From assembly GCA_015487555.1 (NCBI GenBank), contig WFPK01000052.1:44144-108143 (forward strand): 64,000 nucleotides of DNA. Reading direction: 5' to 3'. Numbering within the stretch: position 1 is the first letter of the stretch; every line of letters starts with the position of its first letter. Origin of the DNA: Phycisphaerales bacterium (GTDB lineage Bacteria > Planctomycetota > Phycisphaerae > Phycisphaerales > UBA1924). Below the pieces are notes generated by a model. The model was not told the DNA's origin. It did not search any database and saw nothing but the letters and a program-made list of their open reading frames with translations. Positions 38,134-51,372 of the stretch are shown here, piece by piece. The position numbers and the translations under genes were made by a program.

Positions 38134-38206
38134 GGGCATATAGCTCAGTTGGTAGAGCACGGCATTGAAAATGCCGGTGTCCGTGGTTCAAGTCCGCGTA
38201 TGCCCA
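38134..38206 (+). tRNA. tRNA-Phe (GAA)
   Basis: GGGCATATAGCTCAGTTGGTAGAGCACGGCATTGAAAATGCCGGTGTCCGTGGTTCAAGTCCGCGTATGCCCA. The acceptor stem is GGGCATA/TATGCCC, the anticodon stem-loop is CGGCA-TTGAAAA-TGCCG, and the T-loop is GGTTCAAGTCC. Confidence 0.9.
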
Positions 38207-39497
38207 TTGATTGGTTCTGCAAAGAACCGCAAAGACCAGAAGGGATCAGCATAAGTGCTGGTTCCTTTTTAGTTTGCGCTCCGTTTTGATCTTCTTTGCC
38301 GGTTGTTGCGGATTGCTGCTGCGCTGCCATTTGCGCCCCAAGTGCGCCGCATTCTGCGCCGCTTTTTTCAGTCTGCTTCATCGCTATCGGTGTTGATGCA
38401 GCACGCTCATAATCCTCATCACGAACCATGTGGTAGTGAGCCTCAGCGATCGCCTGGGAGTGCCCCATCCATGCTGTGCATTGAGCCGACGGATATACGG
38501 CCGCCAACTCGGTCGCCCTGCTTGCCCGCATGTTATTGAACAAATTAGGCCATGCGTTCAAGCCAGCCCGCTCGATGAGCCGCCGCATGTGCGTGCCCAG
38601 ATTCGACCCCAAGTCCCGATACCGCCCCACGACGAACTCAGCACCATCGGGGGCACACTCATATGCCTGCATCAACACCTCTCGAAGCTCAGGAAACAAC
38701 GGCACCATTCGCTCTGCCTTGCCCTGATGATGCTCGGTCTTTGGCGATCGAACCCTAAATCGGTTGTTTGCCCAGTCAATATCCGCCCAGCGAACCCCCA
38801 ACACTTCCGATGGGCAACGCAACCCACCAAATCGAGCCAGTGCCACAATGCACCGCCAGTCAGCATCCGGGCATGCCTCCATGACCTTGAAGATGGCCTC
38901 TGGAGTGATAAAGAATGCCTTTTCCCTGTTTGTTTTTCGCCCGGCTTTCACATCTTCAAACGGATTGCTCGGGATCATCCCCCACTTCACTGCTTTCTTG
39001 AAGAACATCCGCGCCCCGCGAATATCGCGTCCGATTGTGGCCTCGGCGTATTTCTTCCCACACAACCATGCCCGCCATTTGTCACCTTCGAGTGAAGTAA
39101 TCGAATCGAGTTGGCGTGAATCGCCAAAGTATGCAATGAGCCGCCGTTGAGTTTGGGCATATCGGATGCGAGTTGATTCCTTCACGCTTACCGTGGCGAA
39201 ATACTCATCAAGCATCCCACCAAGCGTGCGGGTCTTGGCCGCCTCTCTTGGCTCTGCAAGACCTGCCAATACCAGCTTGGCGTAGGTGTCGTCTGGAAGG
39301 TCTGCAAGCCATTCGGCGGTCTGTGGGTTGATCGGTGTGTTGAGTCTGACCGAATCAATCAGCGATTCCACCCGAACCTTGAACGCCTCGGCTGCCTTGA
39401 CATTGATCTTGCCGAGCCGAATCGTGCGCCGATTACCTTTGGAAATCATGAACTGGATGCGTTTGGAGCCGTCTTTGTCGCGAATGAGTGATGCCAT
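38145..39497 (-). CDS. int: Tyrosine site-specific integrase (integrated-state reading frame ends inside tRNA-Phe)
   Basis: 450 aa. It has an N-terminal arm/SAM-like region and a catalytic domain with ...GLRCPSEV..., ...NMRASRATELA..., ...WMGHSQAIAEAHYHMV (catalytic Tyr). The last 14 codons (EPRTPAFSMPCSTN) are antisense of the tRNA body. Confidence 0.9.
   Translation of the reverse strand: MASLIRDKDGSKRIQFMISKGNRRTIRLGKINVKAAEAFKVRVESLIDSVRLNTPINPQTAEWLADLPDDTYAKLVLAGLAEPREAAKTRTLGGMLDEYFATVSVKESTRIRYAQTQRRLIAYFGDSRQLDSITSLEGDKWRAWLCGKKYAEATIGRDIRGARMFFKKAVKWGMIPSNPFEDVKAGRKTNREKAFFITPEAIFKVMEACPDADWRCIVALARFGGLRCPSEVLGVRWADIDWANNRFRVRSPKTEHHQGKAERMVPLFPELREVLMQAYECAPDGAEFVVGRYRDLGSNLGTHMRRLIERAGLNAWPNLFNNMRASRATELAAVYPSAQCTAWMGHSQAIAEAHYHMVRDEDYERAASTPIAMKQTEKSGAECGALGAQMAAQQQSATTGKEDQNGAQTKKEPALMLIPSGLCGSLQNQSMGIRGLEPRTPAFSMPCSTN
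38191..38208 (+). repeat. attL core (3' end of tRNA-Phe)
   Basis: AGTCCGCGTATGCCCATT, identical to 47923..47940. Confidence 0.8.
38340..38360 (+). repeat. 21-bp repeat copy 1 (inside the element, 131 bp from the attL core)
   Basis: AAGTGCGCCGCATTCTGCGCC, identical to 47853..47873. Confidence 0.9.
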
Positions 39498-41602
39498 TAT
39501 TTTCTACCTTCCTGATCCGAGTCTACCGGATTCGTATCGCCGATGCGAGGTTCATTGTTCAGATTGGGGCCGCGAAGATCCACCGGGGGTATCCTGTTCA
39601 GTTGCTCTGAATCACATACACCGCCATTGTCCGCCACATCTCCCTCTATGGCAAAGTTGGCGGGCTTTGGTTCATCTTGGCGGTCTATGGTGGGCATTGC
39701 CCACATCCAGCGACCACTACTTGAGAATCCCTCGCGGATTGCTGTTGCCTTGATTCGCTTCTTGGCACGCTCGATCGTGCGCCATGCAAGCCCGTCCTGC
39801 TCGCCCATTCTCCTGATGTCACTTGATGCCATCGGGCCGTCACTGAGCACATCGCGGAGCCATTTCCCGGCTTCATCACCCGCGCTGCTCCCACCGGTGC
39901 TGTTAGCCAGCACCTCGGATGCTGTGATACTCACTGAATCGGCTTCCCACTGGACCCGAGCAGGATCATCGCCGATCGTGAATGCCAAACCCGGCGAGGG
40001 GATGGACAGGTTCATCTTGCCGGGGAGTAAAAACCGCCGATCTTCATCATCGGGATCACGCATCAAATGGAGCACCGATCGGGCAAGCCCAGTGAATGCC
40101 CTTGAGCCGAGCACCATGTCATCTGGGTTCGCCGCTGCGCCCTTGCGTTGGTGGGCTACCAGCACCACCGCTGCGCCTGTTTCTTGGGCGAGGGCAGCCA
40201 GTGGAGCCAACACCGCACGCACTTCATTGTCCCGATGTGCATCTACGCGCCCGCCCATATATGAGCCGATCGGATCAATCACGATCAGCCGCACATCGCC
40301 GATAGTTCTGAGGGCTTGGTGGAGTGGATCAATATCGGCCAGAGTGAATGCGCCCTCAAGCATGTTGCCATGCTTGCCCTGTGCGTGAACACCCTTGAGC
40401 ATATGAATCTGCTCAGAATCAGCATTATGGGCATCGAGCCGAGGGCGGATGGTGTCTCCTGGATCGTCCTCAGCCGAAACCAGTAGCACGCTCCCCGCTT
40501 CGCACGATGCTCCATCGGGCCAGTCCTGCCCGGTGCTCACTCTCGCTGCCCAATCGAGCGTAGCGAACGATTTGCCCTCGCCGGGTCGGCCAACCAGTAG
40601 GCTCAATCGACCCAAGGGCAGCCGTCCAGCCCAAAGCCAACTCACCTTCTGCGCTTGCACATCGGCCATACGCAAGAGCACCGGGCTGCCACATTGGGGA
40701 GCGGATTGCAACTTCTTGGGCGCACACGCCTTTGCGAGTGCCTCAACTGCTTCACGCACCGCGCCCGTGTCACCTTGGGTAAGTTCCAGCACATCGGCCA
40801 TGTCTCCGCCCTTGGGCAACTCAGGCCAACGCTCGATCAAATGCACGATCTTCACCGATGCTGCGCCCGCTTCGCGTGCAAGCTGATGCACACCATCGGC
40901 ATATTTCTCACCTGGCTCATCGTGATCGGGAAGGATCACCACTTCGCGCCCGGCCAATGGTGTCCAGTCCGCATTGCCTGCGCTCTTGCTCCCATGTGGG
41001 CTTGTGGTGGCGATCAGCCCGCACGCTCGGGCCGCGTCCGCAGCCTTCTCGCCCTCACACACATACACCACGCCCTCGGCTTTGAGCAACTCAGCAAGCC
41101 CATACAAGGGCCTCGGTTCAGGCATCCCGCCGATGAACCAACCCGCACCGTTTCGGGACACCGGGCGCATCTTCTTGCCAGATTCAGTATCCCACCGCAC
41201 CATCACCCCCACCGGTTCACCTTGAGCATCGTGGTATGTCCATGCCTTCGATCTTGGGCCGTGTTTGCGCTCCAACGCCTCAACCGCTTGGTGAGCCGTG
41301 GAGTATGTGACTTTTTGGGGCCTCGGGTGTCTGGTGTGGGGTGTTGGATGCTCTTCTGGGAACAAATTACGCATCTCCAATCCAATCGCCTCAATCACTG
41401 ATTCGGTGGTGCAACCAGCATGGCACTTGAGCAATGCCCGTCCATCATCGCCGGGGGTGATGCTCAGGCTCGGGTTCCGATCATCATGGGCCGGGCATCG
41501 ACACATCCAGCCAGTGCCAGATTGTTTGGGTTCGTGTCCAATGACTCTGAGCGCATCGAGCACACGCTGGATGGGATTCGAGGTATTCGTGTTGATGCTC
41601 AT
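39497..41602 (-). CDS. Bifunctional DNA primase / replicative helicase-like ATPase (zinc-binding + Toprim + RecA-like AAA_25)
   Basis: CRCPAHDDRNPSLSI...LKCHAGC zinc motif. Toprim VYVCEGEKAADA...ILPDHDEPG. Walker A GRPGEGKS and Walker B VLLVSAEDD. There is a 1-nt overlap with the int start. Confidence 0.85.
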   Translation of the reverse strand: MSINTNTSNPIQRVLDALRVIGHEPKQSGTGWMCRCPAHDDRNPSLSITPGDDGRALLKCHAGCTTESVIEAIGLEMRNLFPEEHPTPHTRHPRPQKVTYSTAHQAVEALERKHGPRSKAWTYHDAQGEPVGVMVRWDTESGKKMRPVSRNGAGWFIGGMPEPRPLYGLAELLKAEGVVYVCEGEKAADAARACGLIATTSPHGSKSAGNADWTPLAGREVVILPDHDEPGEKYADGVHQLAREAGAASVKIVHLIERWPELPKGGDMADVLELTQGDTGAVREAVEALAKACAPKKLQSAPQCGSPVLLRMADVQAQKVSWLWAGRLPLGRLSLLVGRPGEGKSFATLDWAARVSTGQDWPDGASCEAGSVLLVSAEDDPGDTIRPRLDAHNADSEQIHMLKGVHAQGKHGNMLEGAFTLADIDPLHQALRTIGDVRLIVIDPIGSYMGGRVDAHRDNEVRAVLAPLAALAQETGAAVVLVAHQRKGAAANPDDMVLGSRAFTGLARSVLHLMRDPDDEDRRFLLPGKMNLSIPSPGLAFTIGDDPARVQWEADSVSITASEVLANSTGGSSAGDEAGKWLRDVLSDGPMASSDIRRMGEQDGLAWRTIERAKKRIKATAIREGFSSSGRWMWAMPTIDRQDEPKPANFAIEGDVADNGGVCDSEQLNRIPPVDLRGPNLNNEPRIGDTNPVDSDQEGRK

Positions 41603-42006
41603 GCCTCACCCCCTACATGCTGCCCGACGGCGACCCACACAGCTGCGGGGCATCCGCGTTGGGTGAGCCGTCGATTCCCTGTATCTCGGATCAAACCCAG
41701 CTTCGCAAGCTCTCCGCGACGGGCGGAATAACTTGCAGCGAATATGTCGAGTTGAGTTTCGCCCTCATCGTCAGTGAGTCCATGCGCCCCACTTGCCAAG
41801 ATCGCTCGATAGATTCGTGCCCGTTGGGTGGGCGTGCGGGCCGCGATCATCATGGCTGCCACTTCCGAGGTGCCTTTGGGCGCATTGTGTCGGAATGGTG
41901 GGCGCAGGTCTTGGGCCGAGGGTGTATGCTTAGCATGTTGTGAGTTTTCGGCATCGCCACCAATGGCAGGTGTGGGCGTGCCATTTCCAAATAGATCATT
42001 TTGCAT
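41599..42006 (-). CDS. Hypothetical protein, possible winged-helix DNA-binding protein
   Basis: The start is trimmed to MQNDLFG. The C-terminal part RIYRAILASGAHGLTDDE...ARRGELAKLGLIRDTG resembles a wHTH. It overlaps its neighbours within the operon. Confidence 0.4.
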   Translation of the reverse strand: MQNDLFGNGTPTPAIGGDAENSQHAKHTPSAQDLRPPFRHNAPKGTSEVAAMMIAARTPTQRARIYRAILASGAHGLTDDEGETQLDIFAASYSARRGELAKLGLIRDTGNRRLTQRGCPAAVWVAVGQHVGGEA

Positions 42007-42226
42007 CGGTCTGCCCTCCCTTGCGGGCAATGAACGCCTCCAACTCGGCAACTGGGATCAGCACGATTCGATCGAGCTTGAATGATCCGATCTGCCCGGA
42101 TTTGAGCAGTGTGTGCAATGTTCGCTCAGACACGCCAAGGGCATTGGCGGCTTCCCGCTTGCGGAGGGTGAGCCGAAGATCGGATGGGGGATTGGGGGTC
42201 GGTGCGGGTGGTTGCCAGTTATTCAC
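41996..42226 (-). CDS. Helix-turn-helix (excisionase/AlpA-like, HTH_17) protein
   Basis: LTLRKREAANALGVSERTLHTLLKSGQIGSFKLDRIVLIPVAELEAFI. Confidence 0.7.
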   Translation of the reverse strand: MNNWQPPAPTPNPPSDLRLTLRKREAANALGVSERTLHTLLKSGQIGSFKLDRIVLIPVAELEAFIARKGGQTDAK

Positions 42227-42423
42227 TCGGCACCCCCTTCACGCTCGGCATATTCGGCGAGTTTGATTCGGGCGCGTTCGAGGTGAACCAGCCACCGCCG
42301 CCCGGCTTTGATTGCAGGGATGCGCCCGGCCTCCGCTTCAGATTGAAGCCATGCGATTGGGACCCCCAAGTTTGACGCTGCACGCCTGATGGGAACAAAT
42401 GTTGTTTGTGTTTCTTGGCTCAT
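42223..42423 (-). CDS. Helix-turn-helix (excisionase/AlpA-like, HTH_17) protein
   Basis: The start is trimmed to MSQETQ. Sequence FVPIRRAASNLGVPIAWLQSEAEAGRIPAIKAGRRWLVHLERARIKL. Confidence 0.65.
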   Translation of the reverse strand: MSQETQTTFVPIRRAASNLGVPIAWLQSEAEAGRIPAIKAGRRWLVHLERARIKLAEYAEREGGAE

Positions 42424-42468
42424 ACTGCGAGCATTGCAGCATTTTGAGCAAGACCAAACCAATCCAAT

Positions 42469-43806
42469 TCAGTTCTTCGGTTTGCTTACGGCCCCTTCGC
42501 TTTCCTTCGCCCGTTTGATAGCCGTTTTGTATTCAGGATACCTTTCATAGACTTCAATGATGGAATGATGCCAGCGGTCGGACACCTTCAAACTTCTCTT
42601 CAATCGTCCATCATTCGCGGCAACTCGTAATAAGTCTGCGTATAAGCCTCCATCAGTCGCTGAAGAAAACCATGCGGCATTTCTTCTCTCGACCGCAGAC
42701 GATGAAAATAGCCTTTCCGAACCAGAAGTAGCCTTTTTTTGTTCTTCTACTGTCCCGTCAATATACAATGCCAACCCCACAATCAACTCCTCGATAGGCC
42801 GATAGGCCTCGGAAATCGCTTTTTGTGGATATACAGAATGCCCCTCTCTATCGCAGCGGAGTGCCCCTCTTTTGAGCAAATGGTCACCAGGCAGCTCGTT
42901 TTTCATTCCCATCAATGGGGGAGGAAATATATTGAGGGCGAGCGTGTTCATACCATCCATTGCTGCCCGTATGCGATCTTGTAGCTCTGGGCGGTGTATT
43001 TGAAATGTTGCGTCTCTCGCCCTTCGAAGAGCTGGCTCCCATGTCGCCCACCATTTTCGATTGTCCTCAAGCAACTCTATTTTCTTTGCCTTCAAATCTT
43101 CGCCATGTTCATGCTGAATCACATCAGCCCATTCAGACGCATTGCCTTGGAATACGCGAATATGCCGTTGCACATCACGCATCGCTCTACTCAGCTCGTC
43201 ATACGGGTTGATTCCCGGCTCATCGCACGGCTGCCCATCACCAGTTGGAATCGTCATTCCCACTGGCATCACTTCCCCCGTCCGAGCACTCCATGTTGCT
43301 CGCTCAAGCAGATCCAACACCTCGCCGGGAGGGCTATCGACGCTGTTGTGTTCACTGTTTTCCCAACAAATCATGCCACGCCCAAGTAATCCGGGGACTT
43401 CCTCACCGAACTGCCAAGGCAACGCTGCAAACGGACACATTGATTTTGAAATATATTCATTGGCATTGGGATCAATCGCCAGCACAAGGGTGAGCACAAC
43501 CATGCTCGCAGCGAGTTTTCGCTCCTCGTGCGGCATAGGCTCCTCGAATCGCATGTCAGAATACCCATTTGGGTACTCATCAGAGACTACGGCAACCTTG
43601 GCGCGGTCTAGCCGAGGAAAGATCAACTCTTCCGATGATTTTTCGGCCCATTTGCCATCATGGTCATCTTGTTTCAGATGATTCTCAGAGAAGATTTCTG
43701 TGAGCCGTTTCCCTGCTTCGGTAAAGACCTCACGATTGGCCTCGATCACTTTTCGAGTTGCACGAAGTAAGCCCTCTCGCCGGGCTGGGGTTGCATTTGA
43801 TGCCAT
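42469..43806 (-). CDS. Orphan 445-aa cytoplasmic protein, no recognisable family (island cargo)
   Basis: Long uninterrupted ORF, AT-richer than its surroundings. The start is trimmed to MASNATPARREG, with GGAAGGTGA 5-8 nt upstream of the ATG at 43806. No TM or signal sequence, and no motif that I recognise. Confidence 0.6.
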   Translation of the reverse strand: MASNATPARREGLLRATRKVIEANREVFTEAGKRLTEIFSENHLKQDDHDGKWAEKSSEELIFPRLDRAKVAVVSDEYPNGYSDMRFEEPMPHEERKLAASMVVLTLVLAIDPNANEYISKSMCPFAALPWQFGEEVPGLLGRGMICWENSEHNSVDSPPGEVLDLLERATWSARTGEVMPVGMTIPTGDGQPCDEPGINPYDELSRAMRDVQRHIRVFQGNASEWADVIQHEHGEDLKAKKIELLEDNRKWWATWEPALRRARDATFQIHRPELQDRIRAAMDGMNTLALNIFPPPLMGMKNELPGDHLLKRGALRCDREGHSVYPQKAISEAYRPIEELIVGLALYIDGTVEEQKKATSGSERLFSSSAVERRNAAWFSSATDGGLYADLLRVAANDGRLKRSLKVSDRWHHSIIEVYERYPEYKTAIKRAKESEGAVSKPKN

Positions 43807-44143
43807 CTTGTTCACCTTCCTCGGGCCGAGCGAGCGCGGCTGGGTCGGAAGGTGAATGACCCCGCCGCGTTCGCTCATCGTCGGAGCAACCCGACAAACC
43901 CGTATTTGATGTAGATCATACCACACCGAACAAAGATGCGACAAAGCGGGCCCTCCATGATTTCGCAAAGACCCCCAAAATCATCATTTTCCCTGTTTTT
44001 TCCCTGTTTACCCAACAATCCATAGGAAACACTGGGAGCAGTACGCGCGCGTGCGCGAGGGGATGCCTCAAATCTACCCGCCTATGAATATCTCCCACCT
44101 GAAGAATGGACAAATCCGTCCAGATACACGATGATCTAGACAC

Positions 44144-47100
44144 ATGGATACACCCACATTTATCGCCAAATGGTCAAAGGCCCAGCTCTCCGAGCGGGCC
44201 GCCTCGCAAGAACATTTTATCGACCTCTGCCGCCTCCTCGGCGTGAAGACACCCGCCGAACTCGATCCCACGGGCGATACCTTTACATTCGAGAAGGGAG
44301 CGAAGGTCTCAGGGCCCGCCTCGATCGGCTCGAAGGGGGCCCACGGGTGGGCGGATGTGTGGTACAAAGGGCGGTTCGCTTGGGAATACAAACGCAAGGA
44401 CAAATACAAGAACTTGGCCGAGGCCTACCGCCAGCTCCAGCAATACCGCGAAGACCTGGGCAACCCGCCGCTGATGATCGTCAGCGACATCACCAACTAC
44501 GAAATCCATACCAACTTCACCGGCTACAAGCCCGAGGTCTTCACCTTCACCCTCGATCAACTCTCCGACCCCGGCACCCTCACCCTCCTCAAACGGGTCT
44601 TCACCGATCCCGAGTCCTTCAAGCCCACCGAGACCGTCGCCGCCATCACCGAGAAGATCGCCGCCAAGATCGGTACCATCGCCCAGCACCTCCGCGATCG
44701 CGGGCATGAGCCGCACGATGCCGCCCATTTTCTGATGAAGGTCATGTTCTGCCTCTTCGCTGAGGATGTGGAACTCCTCCCCAAGGGGCTCTTTGAGCGT
44801 GTCCTCATCAAATCCAAGGACGATCCAGCCCGGCTCAAGAAACAAATGGACGCGATCTTCGATGCTATGCGCACCGGCGGGGACTTCGGCGTAGACGAAA
44901 TCAGCTACTTCAATGGCGGGCTCTTCGACAACGCCGAATCCATCGAACTCACCACCGACGAAATCGAAATCCTCATCGACGCGGCCATCCAAGATTGGTC
45001 GGTCATCGAACCCTCGATCCTCGGCACCCTCTTTGAACGCTCGCTCGATCCCTCAAAGCGATCGCAGATCGGGGCGCACTACACATCCCGCGAAGACATC
45101 ATGCTCGTCATCGAGCCGGTCATTGTCCGCCCGCTTCGCAAGCAGTGGGAAGAGACCAAAGCGCAGATCGAAGACCAGCTCGAACGCCGACGCAAGGGGA
45201 AGACATCGGCCACCAAGAAAAAGGCCGATGCCGAAATCGCCAACCTGCTCGATGGGTTCCAAACCAAGCTCTCCTCCGTTCGCGTCCTCGATCCCGCCTG
45301 CGGCTCGGGCAACTTCCTCTATGTCGCCATCCAGCAACTCCTCTTCCTCGAAAAAGAAGTCATCCTCTACGCATCCCGTGAAGAACTCGGGGTCGGCGGG
45401 TTGCTCCCCCGCGTGCGCCCAACCCAACTCCTCGGCATCGAAATCAACCCCTACGCCTCCGAACTCGCCCAAGTCGCCATCTGGATCGGATACCTCCAAT
45501 GGATGCGAGACAACGGCTTCAACGCCCCCAGAGACCCCATCCTCGAACCCATCGACACCATCGAAAACCGAGACGCGATCCTGGCGTGGGCCGATGAGGA
45601 TGGCGAGCGGATCAGCGTGTGGCGTGAGGGTGCGAAGTGCTTGGGCCAAGCCAAATGGCCCGAGGCGGATTTCATTGTGGGGAATCCGCCGTTTTTGGGG
45701 TCTCGTAAAGCACGAATGGAACTTGGTGATGAGTATGTGGATGCATACCAATCAGCATTTTCCACGACTCCCGAAGGCGTAGATTTATGCTGCTATTGGT
45801 TTGAACTAGCTGGTGCGCAAGTAGTTCAGCATCCCACCTTGCGGGCGGGATTGTTGGCGACACAAGGAATCCGCGGTGGGTCAAGCAGATCAGTATTGCA
45901 ACGAATCGAATCTAGATCAACAATCTTCTTTGCTATATCTGACAGAGTTTGGGAACTGGATGGAGCAACAGTACACATCTCAGTCGTGGGCTTTACTTTA
46001 GATTCTGACGAGCAATATATTTTGGATTGCCTGCCTGTTGACGGCATCAACTCCGATCTCACAGAGGGCGTAAATCTTACTAAAGCGACCAAAAAACCAG
46101 AAAACGCATCCATTTCTTTTCAAGGTACTATCAACAGTGGATCATTTGATCTCTCATATACCGAAGCGTGTCGCATGCTAACTATCCCAAACCCTATCCA
46201 AGCAAATAACGCAGATGTACTCAGGCCTTGGTGCAATGGTCGTGATTTGACTAAAAGAACAAGGGGGCAATGGATTGTAGATTTTGGTGTTGATCGTGAT
46301 GAAAAAGAATGCGCTCAGTACGAAGAGCCATTTGATTATGTTGTGAATCATATAAAACCTCAACGAGACAAGCTGAAAGATGGAAAGCAAAAATACGCGC
46401 ATTCATCGAAATATCCATTTTGGCAAATGTGGAATCCTCGCCCAGAAATGCGAAAAACGCTGCCCGCCGATAGCCGCTATGTCGGCACGCCAAGAGTCAC
46501 AAAATATAGATTGTTCAAATGGATGGATTCAACTCATCTTCCTGACGCACAGATTATTGTCTTCGCCCGTTCTGACGATTATTTTTTCGGCACCCTCCAC
46601 AGCAGCATCCACGAACTCTGGGCACGCCGGCTTGGGTCACAACTCCGAGACGCTGAATCAGGTTTCCGCTACACACCCACTACTTGCTTCGAGACCTTCC
46701 CCCTCCCGTGGTCGCCGGGGCATGAGCCGGGCGAGGGTGAGCCTCAGCGTCCGCTCCACGATGCCATCGGCGAGGCCGCCGCAACCCTCAACGAACAGCG
46801 CGAGCGATGGCTCAACCCGCCCGAGTGGGTGCAACCGATCGCCGACCGGATTGATGCCGAGGATGATTTCGCCGATGTGCTCGCCGTCAGTGGCGAGGAG
46901 GCCCAACGCTTGATCCGCCAGAGCGCGATTGATGCCGCCTGCGCCAAAGACCCCAAACTCAAGAAACGCACCCTCACCAACCTCTACAACGAACGCCCGA
47001 CTTGGTTGAGACTCGCCCACAAAGCCCTCGACCAAGCCGTGATTGCCGCCTACGCCGCCGTTGATCCCGATGGCGATTGGGACACCGCTTGGGCTGAGGT

Positions 47101-47221
47101 CTTCGAGGAAACCGGAGCCGGTCAACCCTTGCCCGAGGGGCATGAGTTGATAGAACGCCGGGAAGAGGTGGAGCAGTTGATTTTGGGGAATCTGCTTCGG
47201 ATGAACCAAGCGCGGGCGTGA
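44144..47221 (+). CDS. MmeI-family Type IIL restriction-modification enzyme (fused endonuclease + N6-adenine methyltransferase + TRD)
   Basis: 1025 aa. The N-terminal nuclease motif is D71-X9-E81-X-K83 (ADVWYKGRFAWEYKRK, 44354..44392). SAM motif I is VLDPACGSGNFL, and motif IV is NPPF (45683..45694). The long C-terminal TRD and helical region are as in MmeI-like enzymes. Confidence 0.85.
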   Translation: MDTPTFIAKWSKAQLSERAASQEHFIDLCRLLGVKTPAELDPTGDTFTFEKGAKVSGPASIGSKGAHGWADVWYKGRFAWEYKRKDKYKNLAEAYRQLQQYREDLGNPPLMIVSDITNYEIHTNFTGYKPEVFTFTLDQLSDPGTLTLLKRVFTDPESFKPTETVAAITEKIAAKIGTIAQHLRDRGHEPHDAAHFLMKVMFCLFAEDVELLPKGLFERVLIKSKDDPARLKKQMDAIFDAMRTGGDFGVDEISYFNGGLFDNAESIELTTDEIEILIDAAIQDWSVIEPSILGTLFERSLDPSKRSQIGAHYTSREDIMLVIEPVIVRPLRKQWEETKAQIEDQLERRRKGKTSATKKKADAEIANLLDGFQTKLSSVRVLDPACGSGNFLYVAIQQLLFLEKEVILYASREELGVGGLLPRVRPTQLLGIEINPYASELAQVAIWIGYLQWMRDNGFNAPRDPILEPIDTIENRDAILAWADEDGERISVWREGAKCLGQAKWPEADFIVGNPPFLGSRKARMELGDEYVDAYQSAFSTTPEGVDLCCYWFELAGAQVVQHPTLRAGLLATQGIRGGSSRSVLQRIESRSTIFFAISDRVWELDGATVHISVVGFTLDSDEQYILDCLPVDGINSDLTEGVNLTKATKKPENASISFQGTINSGSFDLSYTEACRMLTIPNPIQANNADVLRPWCNGRDLTKRTRGQWIVDFGVDRDEKECAQYEEPFDYVVNHIKPQRDKLKDGKQKYAHSSKYPFWQMWNPRPEMRKTLPADSRYVGTPRVTKYRLFKWMDSTHLPDAQIIVFARSDDYFFGTLHSSIHELWARRLGSQLRDAESGFRYTPTTCFETFPLPWSPGHEPGEGEPQRPLHDAIGEAAATLNEQRERWLNPPEWVQPIADRIDAEDDFADVLAVSGEEAQRLIRQSAIDAACAKDPKLKKRTLTNLYNERPTWLRLAHKALDQAVIAAYAAVDPDGDWDTAWAEVFEETGAGQPLPEGHELIERREEVEQLILGNLLRMNQARA

Positions 47222-47307
47222 TCTGCCAGAAGCATTGATTCTTCGCCCCATTGAGGCCACGACACGCCGCTCGCGTGCGATGCGCGGGGTTTGCTAGAAA
47301 CGGGTAT

Positions 47308-47679
47308 TCAAAGTTCAGTAGCACATAAAGCGTGTTTTCGATCTGGATTGAGTTGCTCGATATGCCGCTGAAGTTTTTGTTTTTCTTCTTCAAGATGAGC
47401 GAAAACTTCGTCATTCAGATCATCGCTGTAAAGCAGCTCAAAGAACTCTTTGATTTCCCGTTTGGTCAGAAAAGCAACCCACCCCGCCCAATCTGTCTGA
47501 ACTGCATGAATCTTTCCTGATTCTCTCCATTGGTGAAAGAGCGTCCACGCATTGCGCCCATCACGAAAGAATGGACTTTTCCGCTTCGGAGTCTTGGTAG
47601 CCAGCCCATTTTCGTCGGGTTCAGAATCATCCATGTTTGAGATGTATACATCGAGATATGGCATTGTGATTGCTTCCAT
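47308..47679 (-). CDS. Orphan small protein (about 119-140 aa; start 47730/47679/47664 uncertain), island cargo
   Basis: AT-rich ORF ...MPYLDVYISNMDDSEPDENGL...WTLFHQWRESGKIHAVQTDWAGWVAFLTKREIKEFFELLYSD... No family was recognised. The upstream alternative TTG start overlaps the stop of the int-tail segment. Confidence 0.45.
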   Translation of the reverse strand: MEAITMPYLDVYISNMDDSEPDENGLATKTPKRKSPFFRDGRNAWTLFHQWRESGKIHAVQTDWAGWVAFLTKREIKEFFELLYSDDLNDEVFAHLEEEKQKLQRHIEQLNPDRKHALCATEL

Positions 47680-47726
47680 GAAAAGATAGGCCTTTGAATC
47701 GAATGGTTCTATCAATCCGTAGGTCC

Positions 47727-47939
47727 TCAATGTTCTCCACCGCTGATCAACTCCAGAATCTTCCCTCGCACATCTTCACAAAGCGTTGGCCAGACTCGGA
47801 GAACCTGATCGAGGTCGGGATCGGCTGAGCTGGATTGGGGCGAATCGCCAGAAAGTGCGCCGCATTCTGCGCCCCCACTCTCTGAAATCGGCGTTTCTAT
47901 ATGCGCCAGTGCGGTATGTTTGAGTCCGCGTATGCCCAT
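47727..47939 (-). other. Displaced 3' segment of the integrase reading frame (it would be fused in-frame to int across the att core in the excised circle)
   Basis: The minus strand reads MGIRGL-KHTALAHIETPISESGGAECGALSGDSPQSSSADPDLDQVLRVWPTLCEDVRGKILELISGGEH*. The MGIRGL codons are the att core, read in the same phase as in int (ATG at 38207 and 47939, both in phase with their ORFs). Confidence 0.5.
47853..47873 (+). repeat. 21-bp repeat copy 2 (inside the element, 49 bp from the attR core)
   Basis: AAGTGCGCCGCATTCTGCGCC, identical to 38340..38360 and in the same orientation. Confidence 0.9.
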
Positions 47940-47940
47940 T
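47923..47940 (+). repeat. attR core (displaced copy of the tRNA-Phe 3' end)
   Basis: AGTCCGCGTATGCCCATT. The flanking 5' bases (TGTTTG) only partly match the T-arm (GGTTCA). Confidence 0.8.
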
Positions 47941-47950
47941 CCCAATCAAG

Positions 47951-47982
47951 AAAAGCCTCGGGTCAAACCCGAGGCTTTTTTT
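47951..47982 (+). terminator. Rho-independent terminator, probably the original tRNA-Phe terminator now downstream of attR
   Basis: AAAAGCCTCGGG-tcaaa-CCCGAGGCTTTT, followed by a T-run. It starts 10 nt after the attR core. Confidence 0.7.
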
Positions 47983-48077
47983 CATCGACCACCTCAACCA
48001 ACTCCACAGACTCCATCGAAAAACACCCCAAGCCAAAGCCAGGGGTGCCATTGAGTGTGTAAAGCTTCGCACCTGCC

Positions 48078-49352
48078 CTATGGACAGCCGGCACTAAACG
48101 CCGCGAGGAACGCCGAGATATCGAAGAAGTTCCATGTGCCATTGTTATCAAAGTCCGCTCCCGGATCCTGAGCAGCGAACAAAGAAAGAAACTCCGAAAT
48201 ATCAAAGAAGTTCAGGGCCCCGTCACAGTTGATATCCGCAGGGCAACAATCGAAACCACTTGGCCCATAAAGCACATGCTCGAACGAAGCCATCGGGGTG
48301 TAGCTCAGGCCTTCACATGCGAATCCGCCGAACCAGAAGAGCCCAGCGTGGAGGGTCTCGCCGTCTGAACCACCGGGTAGTGGTGCGTAGATTGCGAATG
48401 CATCTTCCTGACCAGTTGCACCCGGTATCGCGGTATCGAGGTCCCAGGTCCAAGTGCCGTCGCCGTTGTCGATCGCAGTCCCCTCGCCAACACCAAAATT
48501 GATGCCGATTGTTTTGAATGAGTCCGCAAGATCACCATCGATCACACCATCACCATCATGATCGGCTGTTCCGGGCTGGAAAAACCGAACCGACCAACCC
48601 CAATCAAACAACCCATCCTGGTCGAAGTCTGTGTCGGGGAAGCCATCGAAATCATGGTCGCCAAGCCAATACCCAGGCGTATAAAACGCAGCCCCCTGAG
48701 AGTCGCTATCCGTATCCCCAAGCTCAAAGGTCATCGAACTTGAGAACGAACCAGCAAGGTCAATGTCTGCGCTGTAGCCTGCCAATGCGCCATCGTCGAA
48801 GGGTGTGCCGGGCAAATCAGTGAGCCGAAACGAAACCAATGGGAAGCGGTCGCAACGATCACTTCGTCCATTTTCCCCGTCCCAATAAGTCCACTCACCC
48901 GCAAGCCCAACAACCCCATCGCCGACGCCATCGGAATCAGAATCCGTATCAATGTGCCCGGTCACCCAGTTGATATGCACCATATCAACAACCGTATCCA
49001 CAGCCACATCGCCAAAGTCAAGAACAGTAATGCCAGTCGCCAACGAAGTTGTATCAGCGTTATTGTCAACCCCATAGAAAAACTCCGTGGTATACCCCGC
49101 ACCCGCGCACGGATTCGACACCAACGATGACCAGATCGGCCCACTCATCCCAGCAGCAGGTGCTACCTGCTCGTCACCGAGCACCGTCACCACCCGCTCG
49201 CCACTCATGATGTTGTAGTAAATATGAGCAACATCAACCACCTGACCATGCGTCGGCGATAAAGTCACCGGCGATTCCGCAGCCTCAGCAACACCGCCGA
49301 TACCACCGGCACAAAGACAAATCAAAAGAACGCCACTTCCTACACTTTTCAT
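48078..49352 (-). CDS. Secreted Asp-rich Ca-binding-like protein with a C-terminal GC-type dockerin-like domain (paralog 1)
   Basis: The start is trimmed to MKSVGSGVLLICLCAGG (GGGAG upstream), which is a signal peptide. It has DxDxDG-type stretches (DTDSDSDGVGDGV, DHDGDGVIDGD). The C-terminus has two repeats, INCDGALNFFDISEFL and DNNGTWNFFDISAFL, and ends in AGCP. Confidence 0.75.
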   Translation of the reverse strand: MKSVGSGVLLICLCAGGIGGVAEAAESPVTLSPTHGQVVDVAHIYYNIMSGERVVTVLGDEQVAPAAGMSGPIWSSLVSNPCAGAGYTTEFFYGVDNNADTTSLATGITVLDFGDVAVDTVVDMVHINWVTGHIDTDSDSDGVGDGVVGLAGEWTYWDGENGRSDRCDRFPLVSFRLTDLPGTPFDDGALAGYSADIDLAGSFSSSMTFELGDTDSDSQGAAFYTPGYWLGDHDFDGFPDTDFDQDGLFDWGWSVRFFQPGTADHDGDGVIDGDLADSFKTIGINFGVGEGTAIDNGDGTWTWDLDTAIPGATGQEDAFAIYAPLPGGSDGETLHAGLFWFGGFACEGLSYTPMASFEHVLYGPSGFDCCPADINCDGALNFFDISEFLSLFAAQDPGADFDNNGTWNFFDISAFLAAFSAGCP

Positions 49353-49584
49353 TTCATAGCTCCCATTTCCACTGCATTTCCCAAGCAATCCCCAAAAAAC
49401 AGATCGCCGATAACCCGAGCAGGCCGTTGCCCCCTATCCGCACCGCTGAGAAAGCAGTTGCATCAATCTGTTCGATATCAATATATTCATCCTGCACAAC
49501 ATCGCCAATCTCTCACGCATATTCATAGAAAAACACCCGAAAAGGCTCGGGTGTTGAAGGATGATCGTGGAACAATGCCCACAC

Positions 49585-50895
49585 TCATGGGCAGCCTGTA
49601 TTGAACGCCGAGAGGAATGCGGAAATGTCAAAGAAGTTCAACTTGCCATCACCTGTAAAGTCCGCCTGCAAATCCCCAGCTGCAAACAACTCGAGGAACT
49701 TCGAAATATCAAAGAAATTCAACTCGCCATCACAGTTGATATCCACCGGGCAACAGCCGCTCCCGCCGCCAGGCCCAACAAGCTGAGCCCGGAACTGCCC
49801 CAGTGGCGTAAACCCCTCGGAGGTGCATGACAGGATTCCAAAGAGCATTCCCGCGTGCAAGCCATCAAAGTACAGCGCAACCCCCTCCTCCGCACCGTAC
49901 CCGTAATCCCCTGGAGCAGGTATTGGCATCTCCCAAGTCCACGATCCATTTCCTTGCTCAACCCAAACCCCCGCAGGACGAGCAAAGCTGACTCCAATTG
50001 GCTTTTGCGAATCCGCAAAGTCGCCATCAATCACCCCATCACCATCGAGATCGGCCGTACCCGGCTGATAGAACCGCACCGACCAACCCCAGTCAAACAA
50101 CCCATCGCCATCAAGATCCGAATCGGGCAATCCGTCAAAATCACGATCGGCATTGGCAATCGAAACCCCATCGCCAATCCCATCACCATCGGTATCCACA
50201 TCATTGTGGAAATAAGTCGCAGTCGAGACGCCATCGGAATCGCCAATCTCAAAGGTCAGCGAATCCTCGGGCAGAATACTCCTGAGGTCAATGTCGGCTG
50301 TATACCCGGCGAAGAACCCATCTCCGAAAATATTTCCCGGAAGGTTCGCAAACAGAACTGAAATCAAAGGCAGCCGTGTCGAGACATTGATCGCCCGGCC
50401 ATTGTCCGCATCCCAATAAGTCCACTGCCCACCAAGCCCGACAACACCATCGCCGATCCCGTCCGAATCTTCATCTGTGTCATTGTGCCCGGTGATCCAC
50501 TCAATATGAACCATGTCAACCACGCTATCAAGGGCGATATCACCAAAGTCAAGAACCTCAAAACCGGTCATCCCCCCCGGCGAGTTATCGTCCACAACAA
50601 AGAACGGACTCCCACCATCGCTCACCGCAGGGCACGGATCATCCGACATCACCGACCAGATCGGCCCGCTCGACCAGTCTGCCCCCGCAGGGTCGGCCTG
50701 GTCGGGCAAAGAATCGTCCCCTGCCAGTGTAATCACCCGCTCACCGCTGGCCACATGATAATAGATATGCGCGACCTGAACAACCTGCCCACGCGCAACC
50801 GGAAGCTGGCTCGGCGAATCCTCGCCACGAGCAACTCCACAAACAACACCTGCTGAAAGGACCAAAATCAAAGCACTGCTACTTGCGTTTTTCAT
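49585..50895 (-). CDS. Secreted Asp-rich protein with a GC-type dockerin-like C-terminus (paralog 2)
   Basis: 436 aa, collinear with paralog 1 (for example VVDMVHIEWITGHNDTDEDSDGIGDGVVGLGGQWTYWD versus VVDMVHINWVTGHIDTDSDSDGVGDGVVGLAGEWTYWD). It ends ...INCDGELNFFDISKFL...GDGKLNFFDISAFLSAFNTGCP. Confidence 0.75.
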   Translation of the reverse strand: MKNASSSALILVLSAGVVCGVARGEDSPSQLPVARGQVVQVAHIYYHVASGERVITLAGDDSLPDQADPAGADWSSGPIWSVMSDDPCPAVSDGGSPFFVVDDNSPGGMTGFEVLDFGDIALDSVVDMVHIEWITGHNDTDEDSDGIGDGVVGLGGQWTYWDADNGRAINVSTRLPLISVLFANLPGNIFGDGFFAGYTADIDLRSILPEDSLTFEIGDSDGVSTATYFHNDVDTDGDGIGDGVSIANADRDFDGLPDSDLDGDGLFDWGWSVRFYQPGTADLDGDGVIDGDFADSQKPIGVSFARPAGVWVEQGNGSWTWEMPIPAPGDYGYGAEEGVALYFDGLHAGMLFGILSCTSEGFTPLGQFRAQLVGPGGGSGCCPVDINCDGELNFFDISKFLELFAAGDLQADFTGDGKLNFFDISAFLSAFNTGCP

Positions 50896-50925
50896 CGCAT
50901 TTCTCCTTATCCAAAAACCAAACGA

Positions 50926-51249: not shown

Positions 51250-51250
51250 T

Positions 51251-51306
51251 CCCCTGCTCCAAATCCCCTGCTCCAAATCCCCTGCTCCAAATCCCCTGCT
51301 CCAAAC
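51251..51306. repeat. Tandem repeat, 14 bp x 4 (CCCCTGCTCCAAAT; the last unit ends in C)
   Basis: Units lie at 51251-64, 51265-78, 51279-92 and 51293-306. The repeat lies immediately 5' of the ATG (51249) of the truncated dockerin gene. On the coding strand each unit reads ATTTGGAGCAGGGG, which contains GGAG. Confidence 0.9.
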
Positions 51307-51372
51307 CTCACCGCCAACACTCGGCCAGACACCAACAACATCCGCATCCTACACCAAACAGTTTCGCATGTA

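What the first reader, a model, noticed from the sequence alone, without database searches (positions are those of the whole stretch)
38134..47982. 9.75-kb integrative element in tRNA-Phe with a compact int/primase-helicase/AlpA-like module
A perfect 18-bp direct repeat (AGTCCGCGTATGCCCATT) forms the 3' end of an intact tRNA-Phe (38191..38208) and recurs at 47923..47940. Between the two copies, six minus-strand genes are packed with overlapping or nearly abutting stops and starts: the 445-aa orphan, two HTH_17-like proteins, a wHTH-like protein, a primase-helicase and int. There are no capsid, tail or conjugation genes. That resembles phage satellites or small mobilisable islands rather than a prophage or an ICE.
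Basis: partly seen in the sequence, partly recalled or inferred. Interest (0 to 1): 0.6.

Follow-up and report, generated by a model that had tools for sequence, protein, structure and literature searches.

The report
Small defence-carrying island in tRNA-Phe
A 9.7-kb mobile island sits in the only tRNA-Phe gene of a marine Phycisphaerales bacterium; it carries its own integrase, excisionase-type proteins, a DNA primase-helicase and a restriction enzyme, and belongs to a family found in about half of this genus, for which I found no earlier description.

Summary
An intact tRNA-Phe(GAA) ends in an 18-bp sequence that recurs 9,732 bp downstream, and both copies are unique in the 2.64-Mb genome. 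The tRNA's terminator hairpin is stranded just after the second copy. At least four congeneric species have the empty site: tRNA, terminator, then the same neighbouring gene.

One third of the element is a plus-strand MmeI-type (type IIG) restriction-modification gene.

The element belongs to a genus-wide family, seen in 16 of 36 other genomes. The backbone is tRNA/tmRNA–int–primase(-helicase)–HTH/excisionase–445-aa protein of unknown fold. Targets are tRNA-Phe, Ile, Val, Leu and tmRNA. Cargo is mostly restriction systems.

A 21-bp repeat lies in both arms. It is identical in a second species and has changed in both copies together in a third. Other family members have different repeats at the same positions, so these are probably integrase arm sites.

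This copy is not recent. Three sister species carry it at the same site, its dS matches host genes, and dN/dS is 0.09–0.25.

No capsid, terminase, portal, relaxase or T4SS gene was found in the genome, so the route between cells is unknown. Functionally it is closest to PICMI/"type C PICI" satellites and to tycheposons.

The parts
38134..38206 (+). Intact tRNA-Phe(GAA). It is the only tRNA-Phe in the assembly, and its 3' end is rebuilt by element DNA.
   Evidence: ARAGORN; Rfam 69 bits; single tRNA-Phe among 46 tRNAs.
38191..38208 (+). attL core: 18-bp crossover region running from the T-loop to the 3' end of the tRNA plus TT.
   Evidence: exactly two copies in the window and in the genome.
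38145..39497 (-). Tyrosine integrase, 450 aa. It is the last gene of the operon; its ORF runs through the attL core and stops inside the tRNA gene.
   Evidence: Pfam Phage_integrase and Phage_int_SAM_5; phrog_1 at 2.7e-36; dN/dS 0.12-0.15 against orthologues.
38340..38360 (+). P'-arm copy of the 21-bp repeat AAGTGCGCCGCATTCTGCGCC, a candidate arm-type Int site, 131 bp inside attL.
   Evidence: unique pair. Identical pair in G014. Both copies changed together in G043. The same motif flanks an Ile core in G015.
39497..41602 (-). Primase-helicase, 701 aa: CHC2 zinc finger, Toprim-like region and AAA_25 RecA-type NTPase. Presumed replication protein of the element.
   Evidence: Pfam AAA_25 3.8e-39 and a weak Zn_ribbon_DnaG/Toprim match; phrog_239 'DNA primase/helicase' 2.5e-42; full-length homologues annotated as primase/helicase in actinophages and small Streptomyces plasmids.
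41599..42051 (-). 150-aa protein of unknown function, possibly winged-helix. The true start is probably near 42006. Conserved in family members.
   Evidence: phrog_1123 at 1.7e-5; only a sub-threshold AraR_C wHTH hint; 52-74% identical copies in G014, G043, G015, G022 and G002.
41996..42226 (-). HTH_17 / excisionase-family DNA-binding protein, 76 aa. Candidate Xis (recombination directionality factor).
   Evidence: Pfam HTH_17 1.5e-9; NCBIfam TIGR01764 above its cut-off; phrog_66 'excisionase'.
42223..42462 (-). Second HTH_17-like protein, 79 aa or shorter. Regulator or second Xis.
   Evidence: Weak HTH_17 match; phrog_7506 and phrog_1840 RDF/excisionase at about 5e-5; 92% identical in G014.
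42469..43806 (-). 445-aa all-alpha protein of unknown function. First gene of the operon and the signature core gene of the family.
   Evidence: No hit in Pfam, PHROGs, PADLOC or NCBIfam. Start fixed at M47 of the called gene by alignment. AF2 pLDDT 75 with no PDB fold match at E<0.28. 16 of 36 genus genomes carry it. 80 representatives in 1.84 billion proteins, none of the 10 tested having a Pfam domain.
43807..44143 (.). Divergent intergenic region between the operon and the RM gene. It holds a promoter-like site for the minus-strand operon and an 11-bp tandem repeat.
   Evidence: -35/-10 match at 43944-43915; tandem TTTTCCCTGTT x2, not conserved in G014/G043. The leader upstream of the orphan is conserved in several family members.
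44144..47221 (+). Cargo: MmeI-family type IIG restriction-modification enzyme, 1025 aa, with a D-x9-E-x-K nuclease motif visible at residues 71-83.
   Evidence: PADLOC REase_MTase_IIG 1.4e-255, full length; Pfam MmeI_Mtase, MmeI_hel and MmeI_TRD; 70-77% identical copies next to the orphan in G014, G043, G015 and G022.
47308..47730 (-). 140-aa ORF (118 aa as called elsewhere) with no homologue in any related element. Variable right-end cargo.
   Evidence: No family hit; absent from all relatives. G014 has a UmuC-like Y-family polymerase gene here instead.
47727..47945 (-). 72-aa ORF that starts in the attR core, in the same phase as int. In a circular form it would become an alternative C-terminus of Int.
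   Evidence: Open and similar in G000, G014 and G043. dN/dS is 0.26 (G014-G043) to 0.9, so coding status is unsettled.
47853..47873 (+). P-arm copy of the 21-bp repeat, 49 bp inside attR.
47923..47940 (+). attR core, the second copy of the 18-bp repeat.
47945..47985 (+). Displaced terminator hairpin of tRNA-Phe (19-bp arms followed by a T run). It probably also terminates the convergent dockerin-like gene.
   Evidence: Inverted repeat I9. Empty sites in G016, G023, G018 and G008 show the same layout of tRNA, short spacer, GC hairpin and dockerin-like gene end.

Best explanation
What it is. A complete 9,732-bp site-specific integrative island inserted into the 3' end of the single tRNA-Phe gene of a marine Phycisphaerales (Planctomycetota) MAG. 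It belongs to a family found almost only in this genus.

Backbone. One six-gene operon on the minus strand, in the order: 445-aa unknown protein, two HTH_17/excisionase-type proteins, a 150-aa protein, a primase-helicase, and a tyrosine integrase that reads into the tRNA.

Cargo. The attR-proximal third of the element is variable. Here it holds an MmeI-type single-chain restriction-modification enzyme and a 140-aa orphan.

How it most likely works.
- Shown: the element is bounded by an 18-bp core that rebuilds the tRNA. Its attP-equivalent region has a 21-bp repeat on each arm that is conserved or co-varies between species. Related elements occupy five different tRNA/tmRNA genes, and empty sites exist.
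- Inferred: Int binds the core with its catalytic domains and the arm repeats with its N-terminal beta-beta-beta-alpha domain. Together with the HTH_17 excisionase it excises the island as a circle. The primase-helicase then replicates that circle. The RM enzyme protects the host from phage and favours retention of the island.
- Unknown: how it travels between cells. With no packaging, capsid or conjugation genes, it must hitch-hike. The candidates are a virulent helper phage (as for PICMI-type satellites), or vesicles/transformation (as proposed for tycheposons).

History of this copy. It is old. It was present in the common ancestor of three species, has co-diverged with the host under purifying selection, and is the most complete of the three.
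For: Boundaries: unique 18-bp direct repeat, intact tRNA, and a stranded terminator.

Insertion: empty sites in G016, G023, G018 and G024, and nearly in G008.

Gene functions.

Family: orphan homologues occur in 16 of 36 other genus genomes, always in the module tRNA-int-primase-HTH-orphan, at tRNA-Phe, Ile, Val or Leu. A second member lies next to the tmRNA gene in this same genome. Bounded members carry att repeats of 18-33 bp: G043 23 bp, G002 23 bp, G009 33 bp, G015 20 bp, G017 25 bp with 2 mismatches. The integrase tree interleaves the tRNA targets. Cargo includes type IIG RM in five elements and a complete type I RM system in G017.

Arm sites: the 21-bp pair is identical in G000 and G014, although the surrounding DNA is about 83% identical. 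Both copies changed to the same new sequence in G043. The same motif flanks a different (Ile) core in G015. G002 and G009 have different 13-14-nt pairs at the same offsets, about 110-132 bp and 61-70 bp from the core.

Selection: dN/dS is 0.09-0.25 for every backbone gene and for the RM gene. dS is 0.37-1.13, against 0.48-0.86 for flanking host genes.

Host tree: the flanking ABC gene puts the three carriers in one clade and the empty sites in the other.
Against: - No circular junction (attP) or same-species empty site (attB) was seen. 
- The only other assembly of this strain is also in the integrated state.
- Co-divergence with the host means this particular copy may not have moved for a very long time.
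- Sister copies show decay: loss of the Toprim region of the primase in G014 and G043, and a frameshifted RM gene in G014.
- The Int N-terminal arm-binding fold rests on a low-confidence model (pLDDT 60-70 locally, 40 overall), and no Pfam arm-binding family was hit.
- No origin of replication was identified.
Confidence: 0.8

Rival explanations
1. It is a true phage satellite of the minimalist PICMI / type C PICI kind. A helper phage, probably virulent, induces the operon. The element then excises, replicates, and is packaged, perhaps as a concatemer, into helper capsids. The RM gene serves as an anti-phage accessory.
For: The int + HTH_17 + primase set is exactly the minimal core used to define PICMI; HTH_17 (PF12728) is accepted there as AlpA, and DUF3987 primases are accepted and occur in family member G017. 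It is also what SatelliteFinder calls a type C PICI. Size is 6-14 kb, with defence cargo at a variable hotspot. The primase-helicase has full-length phage homologues. There are no self-transfer genes.
Against: No terS, capsid-morphogenesis or packaging gene was found. No relative of the orphan, and only a weak zinc-finger match for the primase-helicase, was found in 2.9 million IMG/VR viral contigs. No HK97 capsid, TerL or portal gene is present in this genome, and no PF05065 capsid in any of 37 genus genomes. No phage of this genus is known to me. SatelliteFinder's authors warn that three-marker clusters can be other kinds of element.
Confidence: 0.3
2. It is a fixed, no longer mobile island. 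An ancient integration was kept by the host for its restriction enzyme, and int and att survive only by chance or for another role.
For: The same element sits at the same site in three species, with dS equal to that of host genes. No excised form was seen. Sister copies show partial decay.
Against: At dS of about 0.5-0.9, a neutral int would be riddled with stops, yet it is intact at 450 aa in all three species with dN/dS 0.12-0.15. The core is perfect in G000 and G043. The attP arms are more conserved than coding DNA, and the two 21-bp copies co-vary. Modules have been exchanged with other family members: the orphan allele in G043 and the right-end cargo. Family members with perfect att repeats sit at other tRNAs in the same genus.
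Confidence: 0.2
3. It is an integrative mobilisable element moved by conjugation. It would use a helper ICE or plasmid and an unrecognised oriT/relaxase, possibly the 445-aa orphan.
For: It has integrase and excisionase without transfer genes. A conserved protein of unknown function heads the operon. AAA_25 primase-helicase relatives occur on plasmids, many of them mobilisable.
Against: No relaxase (PF03432) or VirB4 (PF03135) was found in this genome. The orphan is all-alpha with no resemblance to HUH or other relaxase folds. Only two conjugation families were searched, in a 93%-complete MAG.
Confidence: 0.07
4. It is a degraded prophage remnant.
For: It sits at a tRNA and has phage-type integrase, excisionase and primase-helicase genes.
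Against: No structural, lysis or packaging gene or remnant was found. The same compact backbone recurs in more than 12 genomes with clean att repeats. All genes are under purifying selection.
Confidence: 0.03

Closest known systems
PICMI (phage-inducible chromosomal minimalist islands of Vibrionaceae; PMC10803314)
   Same: Small marine islands (about 6 kb) bounded by a direct repeat of about 17 bp. The core is integrase + AlpA/HTH_17 + primase. They have no capsid-remodelling or packaging genes and carry variable defence-type cargo in one hotspot.
   Different: PICMIs integrate next to fis, not in tRNA genes. Their primase is of the DUF3987/DUF5906 type, whereas here it is CHC2-Toprim-AAA_25 (DUF3987 occurs only in some family members). 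The 445-aa core gene has no PICMI counterpart that I could test. Helper-phage dependence is demonstrated for PICMI and untested here.
Tycheposons of Prochlorococcus (bioRxiv 10.1101/2020.12.28.424599)
   Same: Marine bacteria with small genomes. Tyrosine-recombinase elements target a handful of tRNA genes and tmRNA. They carry excisionase plus primase/helicase replication modules, variable cargo, no capsid or conjugation genes, and leave degraded integrases and partial tRNAs at the same hotspots. The same pattern is seen here.
   Different: Different phylum. Membership is defined by shared hallmark gene clusters, which I could not compare. Cargo here is mainly restriction systems rather than nutrient-acquisition operons. 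No data on induction, vesicles or capsids.
PICI, Gram-negative type (int-alpA-pri/rep-morphogenesis-packaging), and SatelliteFinder 'type C' clusters (PMC10085698)
   Same: Integrase, an AlpA/MerR-class regulator and a primase-replicase in one compact island of about 10 kb with att repeats.
   Different: Two of the five PICI core components, capsid morphogenesis and packaging, are absent. With three markers it would only be 'type C', which the authors do not accept as bona fide PICI.
P4-like satellites
   Same: tRNA-integrated, with integrase, an AlpA-class HTH, a large primase-helicase, and a defence hotspot.
   Different: No PHROG annotated as Psu, Sid, Delta or Epsilon was hit; no profile specific to these proteins was searched. 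The helicase is RecA-type AAA_25, not the P4 alpha type. P4-like satellites are restricted to Enterobacterales.
Lambda-type integrases with arm sites, and lambda sib retroregulation
   Same: A complex attP with arm-type repeats on both sides of the core. The 3' end of the int transcript/ORF differs between the integrated and excised states because att lies within it.
   Different: Here att lies inside the int reading frame itself, so it would be the protein tail that changes rather than an RNase III site. No experimental evidence.

Membership tests
Site-specific integrative genomic island (tRNA-targeting, tyrosine recombinase) | Direct repeat at both ends, one copy forming the 3' end of an intact tRNA | tested here: met
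   18-bp repeat, unique pair in the genome; tRNA intact.
Site-specific integrative genomic island (tRNA-targeting, tyrosine recombinase) | Empty site in relatives that equals left flank + one core + right flank | tested here: met
   G016, G023, G018, G024 and (nearly) G008: tRNA, hairpin, dockerin-like gene.
Site-specific integrative genomic island (tRNA-targeting, tyrosine recombinase) | Intact tyrosine recombinase adjacent to att | tested here: met
   Pfam PF00589 above cut-off, phrog_1, 450-aa open frame.
Site-specific integrative genomic island (tRNA-targeting, tyrosine recombinase) | Observed excision (attP / attB junctions) | tested here: inconclusive
   The metagenome junction scan found only attL of other species. 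The second assembly of the strain is in the integrated state.
PICI (SatelliteFinder model, PMC10085698) | Integrase | tested here: met
PICI (SatelliteFinder model, PMC10085698) | Regulation module (alpA / merR / stl homologue) | tested here: met
   Two HTH_17 (MerR-superfamily) proteins. The AlpA family PF05930 itself was not hit.
PICI (SatelliteFinder model, PMC10085698) | Primase-replicase | tested here: met
   phrog_239 primase/helicase, AAA_25.
PICI (SatelliteFinder model, PMC10085698) | Capsid-morphogenesis gene | tested here: not met
   No Pfam or PHROG hit in any ORF. Three ORFs have unknown function.
PICI (SatelliteFinder model, PMC10085698) | Packaging gene (terS / rpp / ppi) | tested here: not met
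   No hit.
PICMI (model in PMC10803314) | Integrase PF00589 | tested here: met
PICMI (model in PMC10803314) | AlpA (PF05930 or PF12728) | tested here: met
   PF12728 at 1.5e-9.
PICMI (model in PMC10803314) | Primase with DUF3987 or DUF5906 | tested here: not met
   This element has AAA_25 instead. The G017 member has DUF3987 at 8e-73.
PICMI (model in PMC10803314) | Integration next to fis | tested here: not met
   Integrates in tRNA/tmRNA genes.
PICMI (model in PMC10803314) | Induction and packaging by a helper phage | not testable with these tools
   Uncultured host, no known phage.
P4-like satellite | Psu, Sid, Delta, Epsilon and P4-alpha core genes | tested here: inconclusive
   No PHROG annotated as Psu, Sid, Delta or Epsilon was hit, and the helicase domain is AAA_25. 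No profile specific to these proteins was searched, so absence is not shown.
Tycheposon | tRNA/tmRNA target, tyrosine recombinase, xis, primase/helicase, cargo, no capsid or conjugation genes | tested here: met
   description of the family.
Tycheposon | Hallmark genes belong to the tycheposon-specific gene clusters | not tested
Integrative mobilisable element (IME) | Relaxase and/or oriT | tested here: not met
   No relaxase family in the element. PF03432 and VirB4 are absent from the genome. oriT cannot be tested.
MmeI-family type IIG restriction-modification enzyme (cargo gene) | Single chain with N-terminal PD-(D/E)xK nuclease, helical spacer, gamma-class N6A methyltransferase and TRD | tested here: met
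   PADLOC full-length match at 1.4e-255; Pfam MmeI_hel, MmeI_Mtase and MmeI_TRD. The D-x9-E-x-K motif is read directly from the translation. Activity not tested.

The most novel reading that the evidence does not exclude
The element represents the first phage-satellite-like (or tycheposon-like) family of Planctomycetota. It would be a genus-wide set of minimal, self-replicating tRNA/tmRNA hoppers that shuttle restriction systems. Its proposed distinguishing features are: a core protein of novel fold; integrases that keep the same arm sites while switching tRNA core specificity; and an integrase whose C-terminal tail is swapped by excision because the att core lies inside its reading frame, giving a protein-level switch between the integrated and excised states.
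Probability: 0.3. Interest if true: 0.65.

Novelty: new variant of a known kind. Interest (0 to 1): 0.45.

Why it matters
Mobile elements and phages of Planctomycetota are almost undescribed. My literature searches found no report of such islands in this phylum. SatelliteFinder's survey found satellites mostly in Proteobacteria and Firmicutes.

This family would show that the 'minimal integrase + excisionase + primase' design, known from Vibrio PICMIs and Prochlorococcus tycheposons, also drives genome plasticity and the exchange of restriction systems in marine Phycisphaerales.

It also offers a clean natural series for studying two things. One is how a tyrosine integrase changes tRNA target while keeping its arm sites. 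The other is a conserved 445-aa protein with no known fold that is as much a part of the backbone as the integrase.

In kind, however, it is an ordinary tRNA-borne island. A specialist would find it useful rather than startling.

Tried and rejected
- Metagenome scan with a degenerate pattern covering attL, attR, attP and attB: three hits, all attL-type with integrase remnants in other species.
- Exact-protein look-ups. The orphan led only to a second assembly of the same strain (99.99% identical, integrated, contig ending inside the tRNA). The neighbouring dockerin-like protein was not on record.
- IMG/VR scans with the orphan profile and the primase-helicase: nothing relevant.
- Orphan function. 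No family hit was found. The AF2 model (pLDDT 75) has no PDB fold match; the best Foldseek E-value is 0.28. A full HMMER search found 80 representatives and showed a three-part modular build, but ten fusion partners had no Pfam domain.
- Integrase structure from a 3-sequence alignment: pLDDT 40, too poor for a fold search. Only the N-terminal beta-beta-beta-alpha pattern is noted.
- The 11-bp tandem repeat in the divergent intergenic region, considered as an operator or iteron: not conserved in orthologous elements.
- The small hairpin plus T-run formed by the attL 21-mer, considered as a substitute tRNA terminator: the T-run is not conserved in G014.
- Rfam: only the tRNA.
- Prophage-remnant reading: rejected, as there is no structural gene or remnant.

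Full report
OBSERVATION

ARAGORN finds tRNA-Phe(GAA) at 38134-38206 on the plus strand, and Rfam scores it at 69 bits. It is the only tRNA-Phe among the 46 tRNAs of the 2.64-Mb, 93%-complete assembly.

The 18-mer AGTCCGCGTATGCCCATT occurs at 38191-38208 and 47923-47940 and nowhere else in the window or the genome; shuffles give none. The five bases to its left differ (GTTCA vs GTTTG). The distal copy therefore lacks the invariant C56 of a T-loop and is element DNA, not a second tRNA.

Five bases after the distal copy lies a hairpin with 19-bp arms followed by a T run (47945-47985).

GENE CONTENT

Six minus-strand genes abut or overlap by 1-11 nt:
- Integrase, 38145-39497. Pfam PF00589 and SAM_5, phrog_1 at 3e-36.
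- Primase-helicase, 39497-41602. CHC2 zinc finger, Toprim-like region, AAA_25 at 4e-39, phrog_239 at 3e-42. Full-length homologues are annotated as primase/helicase in actinophages and small Streptomyces plasmids.
- A 150-aa protein, matched only by phrog_1123.
- An HTH_17 protein that passes the NCBIfam excisionase model TIGR01764.
- A second, weaker HTH_17 protein.
- A 445-aa protein with no family hit.

The finding's text omits the rest of the element:
- A 1025-aa plus-strand MmeI-family type IIG restriction-modification enzyme, 44144-47221. PADLOC matches it at 1.4e-255 over its full length; Pfam hits MmeI_hel, MmeI_Mtase and MmeI_TRD; a D-x9-E-x-K motif is visible in the translation.
- A 140-aa orphan, 47308-47730.
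- A 72-aa ORF that begins in the attR core.

No capsid, tail, terminase, lysis or conjugation family was hit.

IT IS AN INSERTION

The left flank and tRNA-Phe are syntenic in most of 40 relatives. I fetched the DNA downstream of the tRNA in twelve congeners.

In G016, G023, G018 and G024, and nearly in G008, the tRNA is followed within about 30-60 nt by a GC hairpin and then the 3' end of a dockerin-like gene. That is exactly what follows attR in the window. These are empty sites.

Other congeners are occupied or scarred:
- G014 and G043 carry the orthologous element at the same site.
- G002 carries a related 6.3-kb element with a perfect 23-bp repeat.
- G009, G006, G004 and G015 retain integrase fragments next to the tRNA.

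A FAMILY

The 445-aa 'orphan' has homologues at 30-76% identity in 16 of 36 other genomes of the genus. In a sample of 401 genomes of the order, 10 of the 15 other genomes with a match belong to this genus, and the 5 matches outside it are weak and partial. Record titles place the genus in Phycisphaerales, from marine and subseafloor samples.

In every case with enough context the gene lies in the same module: tRNA, int, primase(-helicase), sometimes the 150-aa gene, HTH_17, orphan, sometimes MmeI. The module sits next to tRNA-Phe, Ile(GAT), Val(TAC) or Leu(TAA). The window's own genome holds a second member, a 777-aa primase-helicase plus int next to the tmRNA gene at the start of the short contig C64.

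Bounded members have these att repeats:
- G043: 23 bp, element 8.7 kb.
- G002: 23 bp, 6.3 kb.
- G009: 33 bp, 7.1 kb.
- G015: 20 bp, about 13.7 kb.
- G017: 25 bp with 2 mismatches, 14.2 kb.
- G014: 18 bp with 2 mismatches, 10.1 kb.

For six further members I found no second att copy within the DNA fetched.

The integrase tree interleaves the targets; for example, an Ile and a Leu element are sisters.

Cargo lies on the attR side and varies:
- Type IIG RM in five elements.
- A complete type I hsdRSM system in G017.
- FG-GAP proteins in G009.
- DUF4917 in G002.
- A UmuC-like polymerase in G014.

ATT ARCHITECTURE

A second perfect repeat, AAGTGCGCCGCATTCTGCGCC, lies 131 bp inside attL (38340-38360) and 49 bp inside attR (47853-47873). 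It too is unique in the genome. Four observations bear on it:
- In G014 both copies are identical to those here, although the elements are only about 83% identical overall.
- In G043 both copies read AAGTGCGCTCGATTCTGCGCC, so the pair changed together.
- The G015 element, which targets tRNA-Ile through a different 20-bp core, has the original 21-mer at the same two offsets.
- G002 and G009 have unrelated 13- and 14-nt pairs at nearly the same offsets (110/63 and 126/61). These only just exceed the longest match seen in shuffles, which is 12.

The roughly 150 bp next to the attL core and the roughly 70 bp next to the attR core are much better conserved among the three orthologues than the coding DNA. 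This is the pattern expected of arm-type integrase-binding sites in a complex attP.

The Int N-terminus is predicted as three strands plus a helix, as in arm-binding domains. The model is poor (pLDDT 60-70 locally, 40 overall), and no Pfam arm-binding family was hit.

AGE AND SELECTION

Window and G014 align continuously across the flank, tRNA and integrase at 82.9% identity. The rest of the element aligns at 82-84%. G043 gives 84% for the flank and 78-84% for the element segments that align.

- Synonymous divergence of element genes is 0.37-1.13. For the flanking ligA, CYTH and ABC-ATPase genes it is 0.48-0.86.
- dN/dS is 0.12-0.15 for int, 0.19 for the primase-helicase, 0.17 for the orphan and 0.19-0.21 for the RM gene.
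- A tree of the flanking ABC gene groups G000 with (G014, G043). The remnant-bearing G009 and G015 are nearby, and all empty-site species fall in the other clade. This is a single-gene tree, so it needs caution.

The simplest reading is one insertion in the ancestor of these species, vertical descent since, and continued purifying selection on the whole backbone.

Changes since then:
- In-frame loss of the Toprim region in the sisters G014 and G043.
- A frameshift in the G014 RM gene, which could be an assembly error.
- Replacement of the orphan allele in G043 (32% identity).
- Replacement of the right-end cargo.
- No DNA-level alignment across the target-recognition part of the RM gene, about 45700-46560.

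TRANSFER ROUTE

The own genome has no match to HK97 capsid, TerL (two families), portal, VirB4 or MOB relaxase. No genome of the genus matches PF05065. Twelve of 37 have borderline Terminase_6N matches, but none is in this genome. IMG/VR holds no relative of the orphan and only a weak zinc-finger match for the primase.

I could not look for excised circles. A second public assembly of the same strain is also integrated.

How the element moves between cells is therefore open. I put about 0.3 on a satellite of a (virulent) phage. The remainder is split between capsid-independent routes and loss of mobility.

THE 445-AA PROTEIN

Alignment fixes its start at 43806. AlphaFold with 12 sequences gives an all-helical model with pLDDT 75. 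Foldseek finds nothing in the PDB better than E = 0.28.

A full HMMER search of 1.84 billion representatives finds 80 relatives. It also shows that the N-terminal (about 8-171), central (about 193-431) and C-terminal (about 363-441) parts occur separately. None of ten fusion proteins has a Pfam domain. Its role is unknown.

COMPARISON WITH KNOWN KINDS

- PICI: three of the five core components are present (int, AlpA/MerR-class regulator, primase-replicase), but morphogenesis and packaging genes are not. It would be a 'type C' cluster, which SatelliteFinder's authors do not accept as bona fide.
- PICMI: the model asks for integrase, AlpA (PF05930 or PF12728), a DUF3987/DUF5906 primase and a fis neighbour. 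Two of the four are met here.
- P4: no PHROG annotated as Psu, Sid, Delta or Epsilon was hit, but I did not search profiles specific to these proteins.
- Tycheposons: these match in every functional respect, namely tRNA and tmRNA targets, YR + xis + primase/helicase, cargo, remnants at hotspots, and a marine host with a small genome. Membership by hallmark-gene homology could not be tested.
- Literature searches found no description of such elements in Planctomycetota.

VERDICT

The finding is real and its interpretation is sound. The element is a new, genus-wide variant of the small tRNA-targeting, self-replicating but not self-transmissible islands, and it carries a restriction enzyme. It is well delimited, intact and under selection. 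It was inherited from before the split of three species, and its activity and transfer route remain to be shown.

Noticed in passing
G000 contig C64:124-4292 (outside the window): A second member of the family sits in the same genome. A 777-aa primase-helicase (48% identical over the primase part) and a 400-aa integrase (35% identical) abut the tmRNA gene. The 7-kb contig starts inside the element.
   Followed up: partly
window 38145-38208 and 47727-47945; L011, L039, L035 and other loci: In all 13 family members with an intact integrase, the int ORF runs through the attL core and stops inside (or, in G008, beyond) the tRNA gene (coordinates). On the attR side an ORF in the same phase is open for 64-72 codons in G000, G014 and G043, with a conserved LDxLIRVWPTL motif. 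Its dN/dS is 0.26 to 0.9. Excision would therefore swap the Int tail; whether that matters is untested.
   Followed up: partly
window 45700-46560 (within the MmeI-like gene): This part of the RM gene, roughly the target-recognition domain and the lowest-GC stretch of the element (48%), does not align at the DNA level with the otherwise 82-84% identical orthologues in G014 and G043. This suggests swapping of specificity modules.
   Followed up: partly
L052:560-800 and 14330-14620 (G015, tRNA-Ile element): A 13.7-kb relative uses the same 21-bp arm motif at the same offsets but a different 20-bp core (AGTCTGTCCGGGCCCATTTA, the tRNA-Ile 3' end). The arm sites have been kept while the core target changed.
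   Followed up: yes
window 48078-50895 and the regions downstream of tRNA-Phe in all congeners (L011-L021): A tandem array of 2-5 paralogous genes of about 436 aa follows the tRNA-Phe site in every genome examined. The proteins are Asp-rich and secreted-looking, with a C-terminal double 'NFFDISxFL...GCP' repeat and no Pfam hit. Copy number varies between species. A variation of about 100 bp in this array is the only structural difference between two assemblies of the same strain.
   Followed up: no
window 30000-56000: The plus strand has a strong negative GC skew in the flanks (-0.2 to -0.5) irrespective of gene orientation, but only about -0.03 to -0.17 across most of the element.
   Followed up: no
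L013:6009-6302 (G002) and L047:5978-6292 (G009): Two family members with different targets (Phe, Val) both carry a small DUF5681 protein near their attR end. The G000 element does not.
   Followed up: no
L068 (ENA ERZ23495365 scaffold_413), equal to window 38154-53789: An independent assembly of the same strain (1 mismatch in 13 kb) breaks exactly inside the tRNA-Phe gene. This could reflect tRNA sequence shared with co-occurring relatives, or heterogeneity at this site.
   Followed up: no
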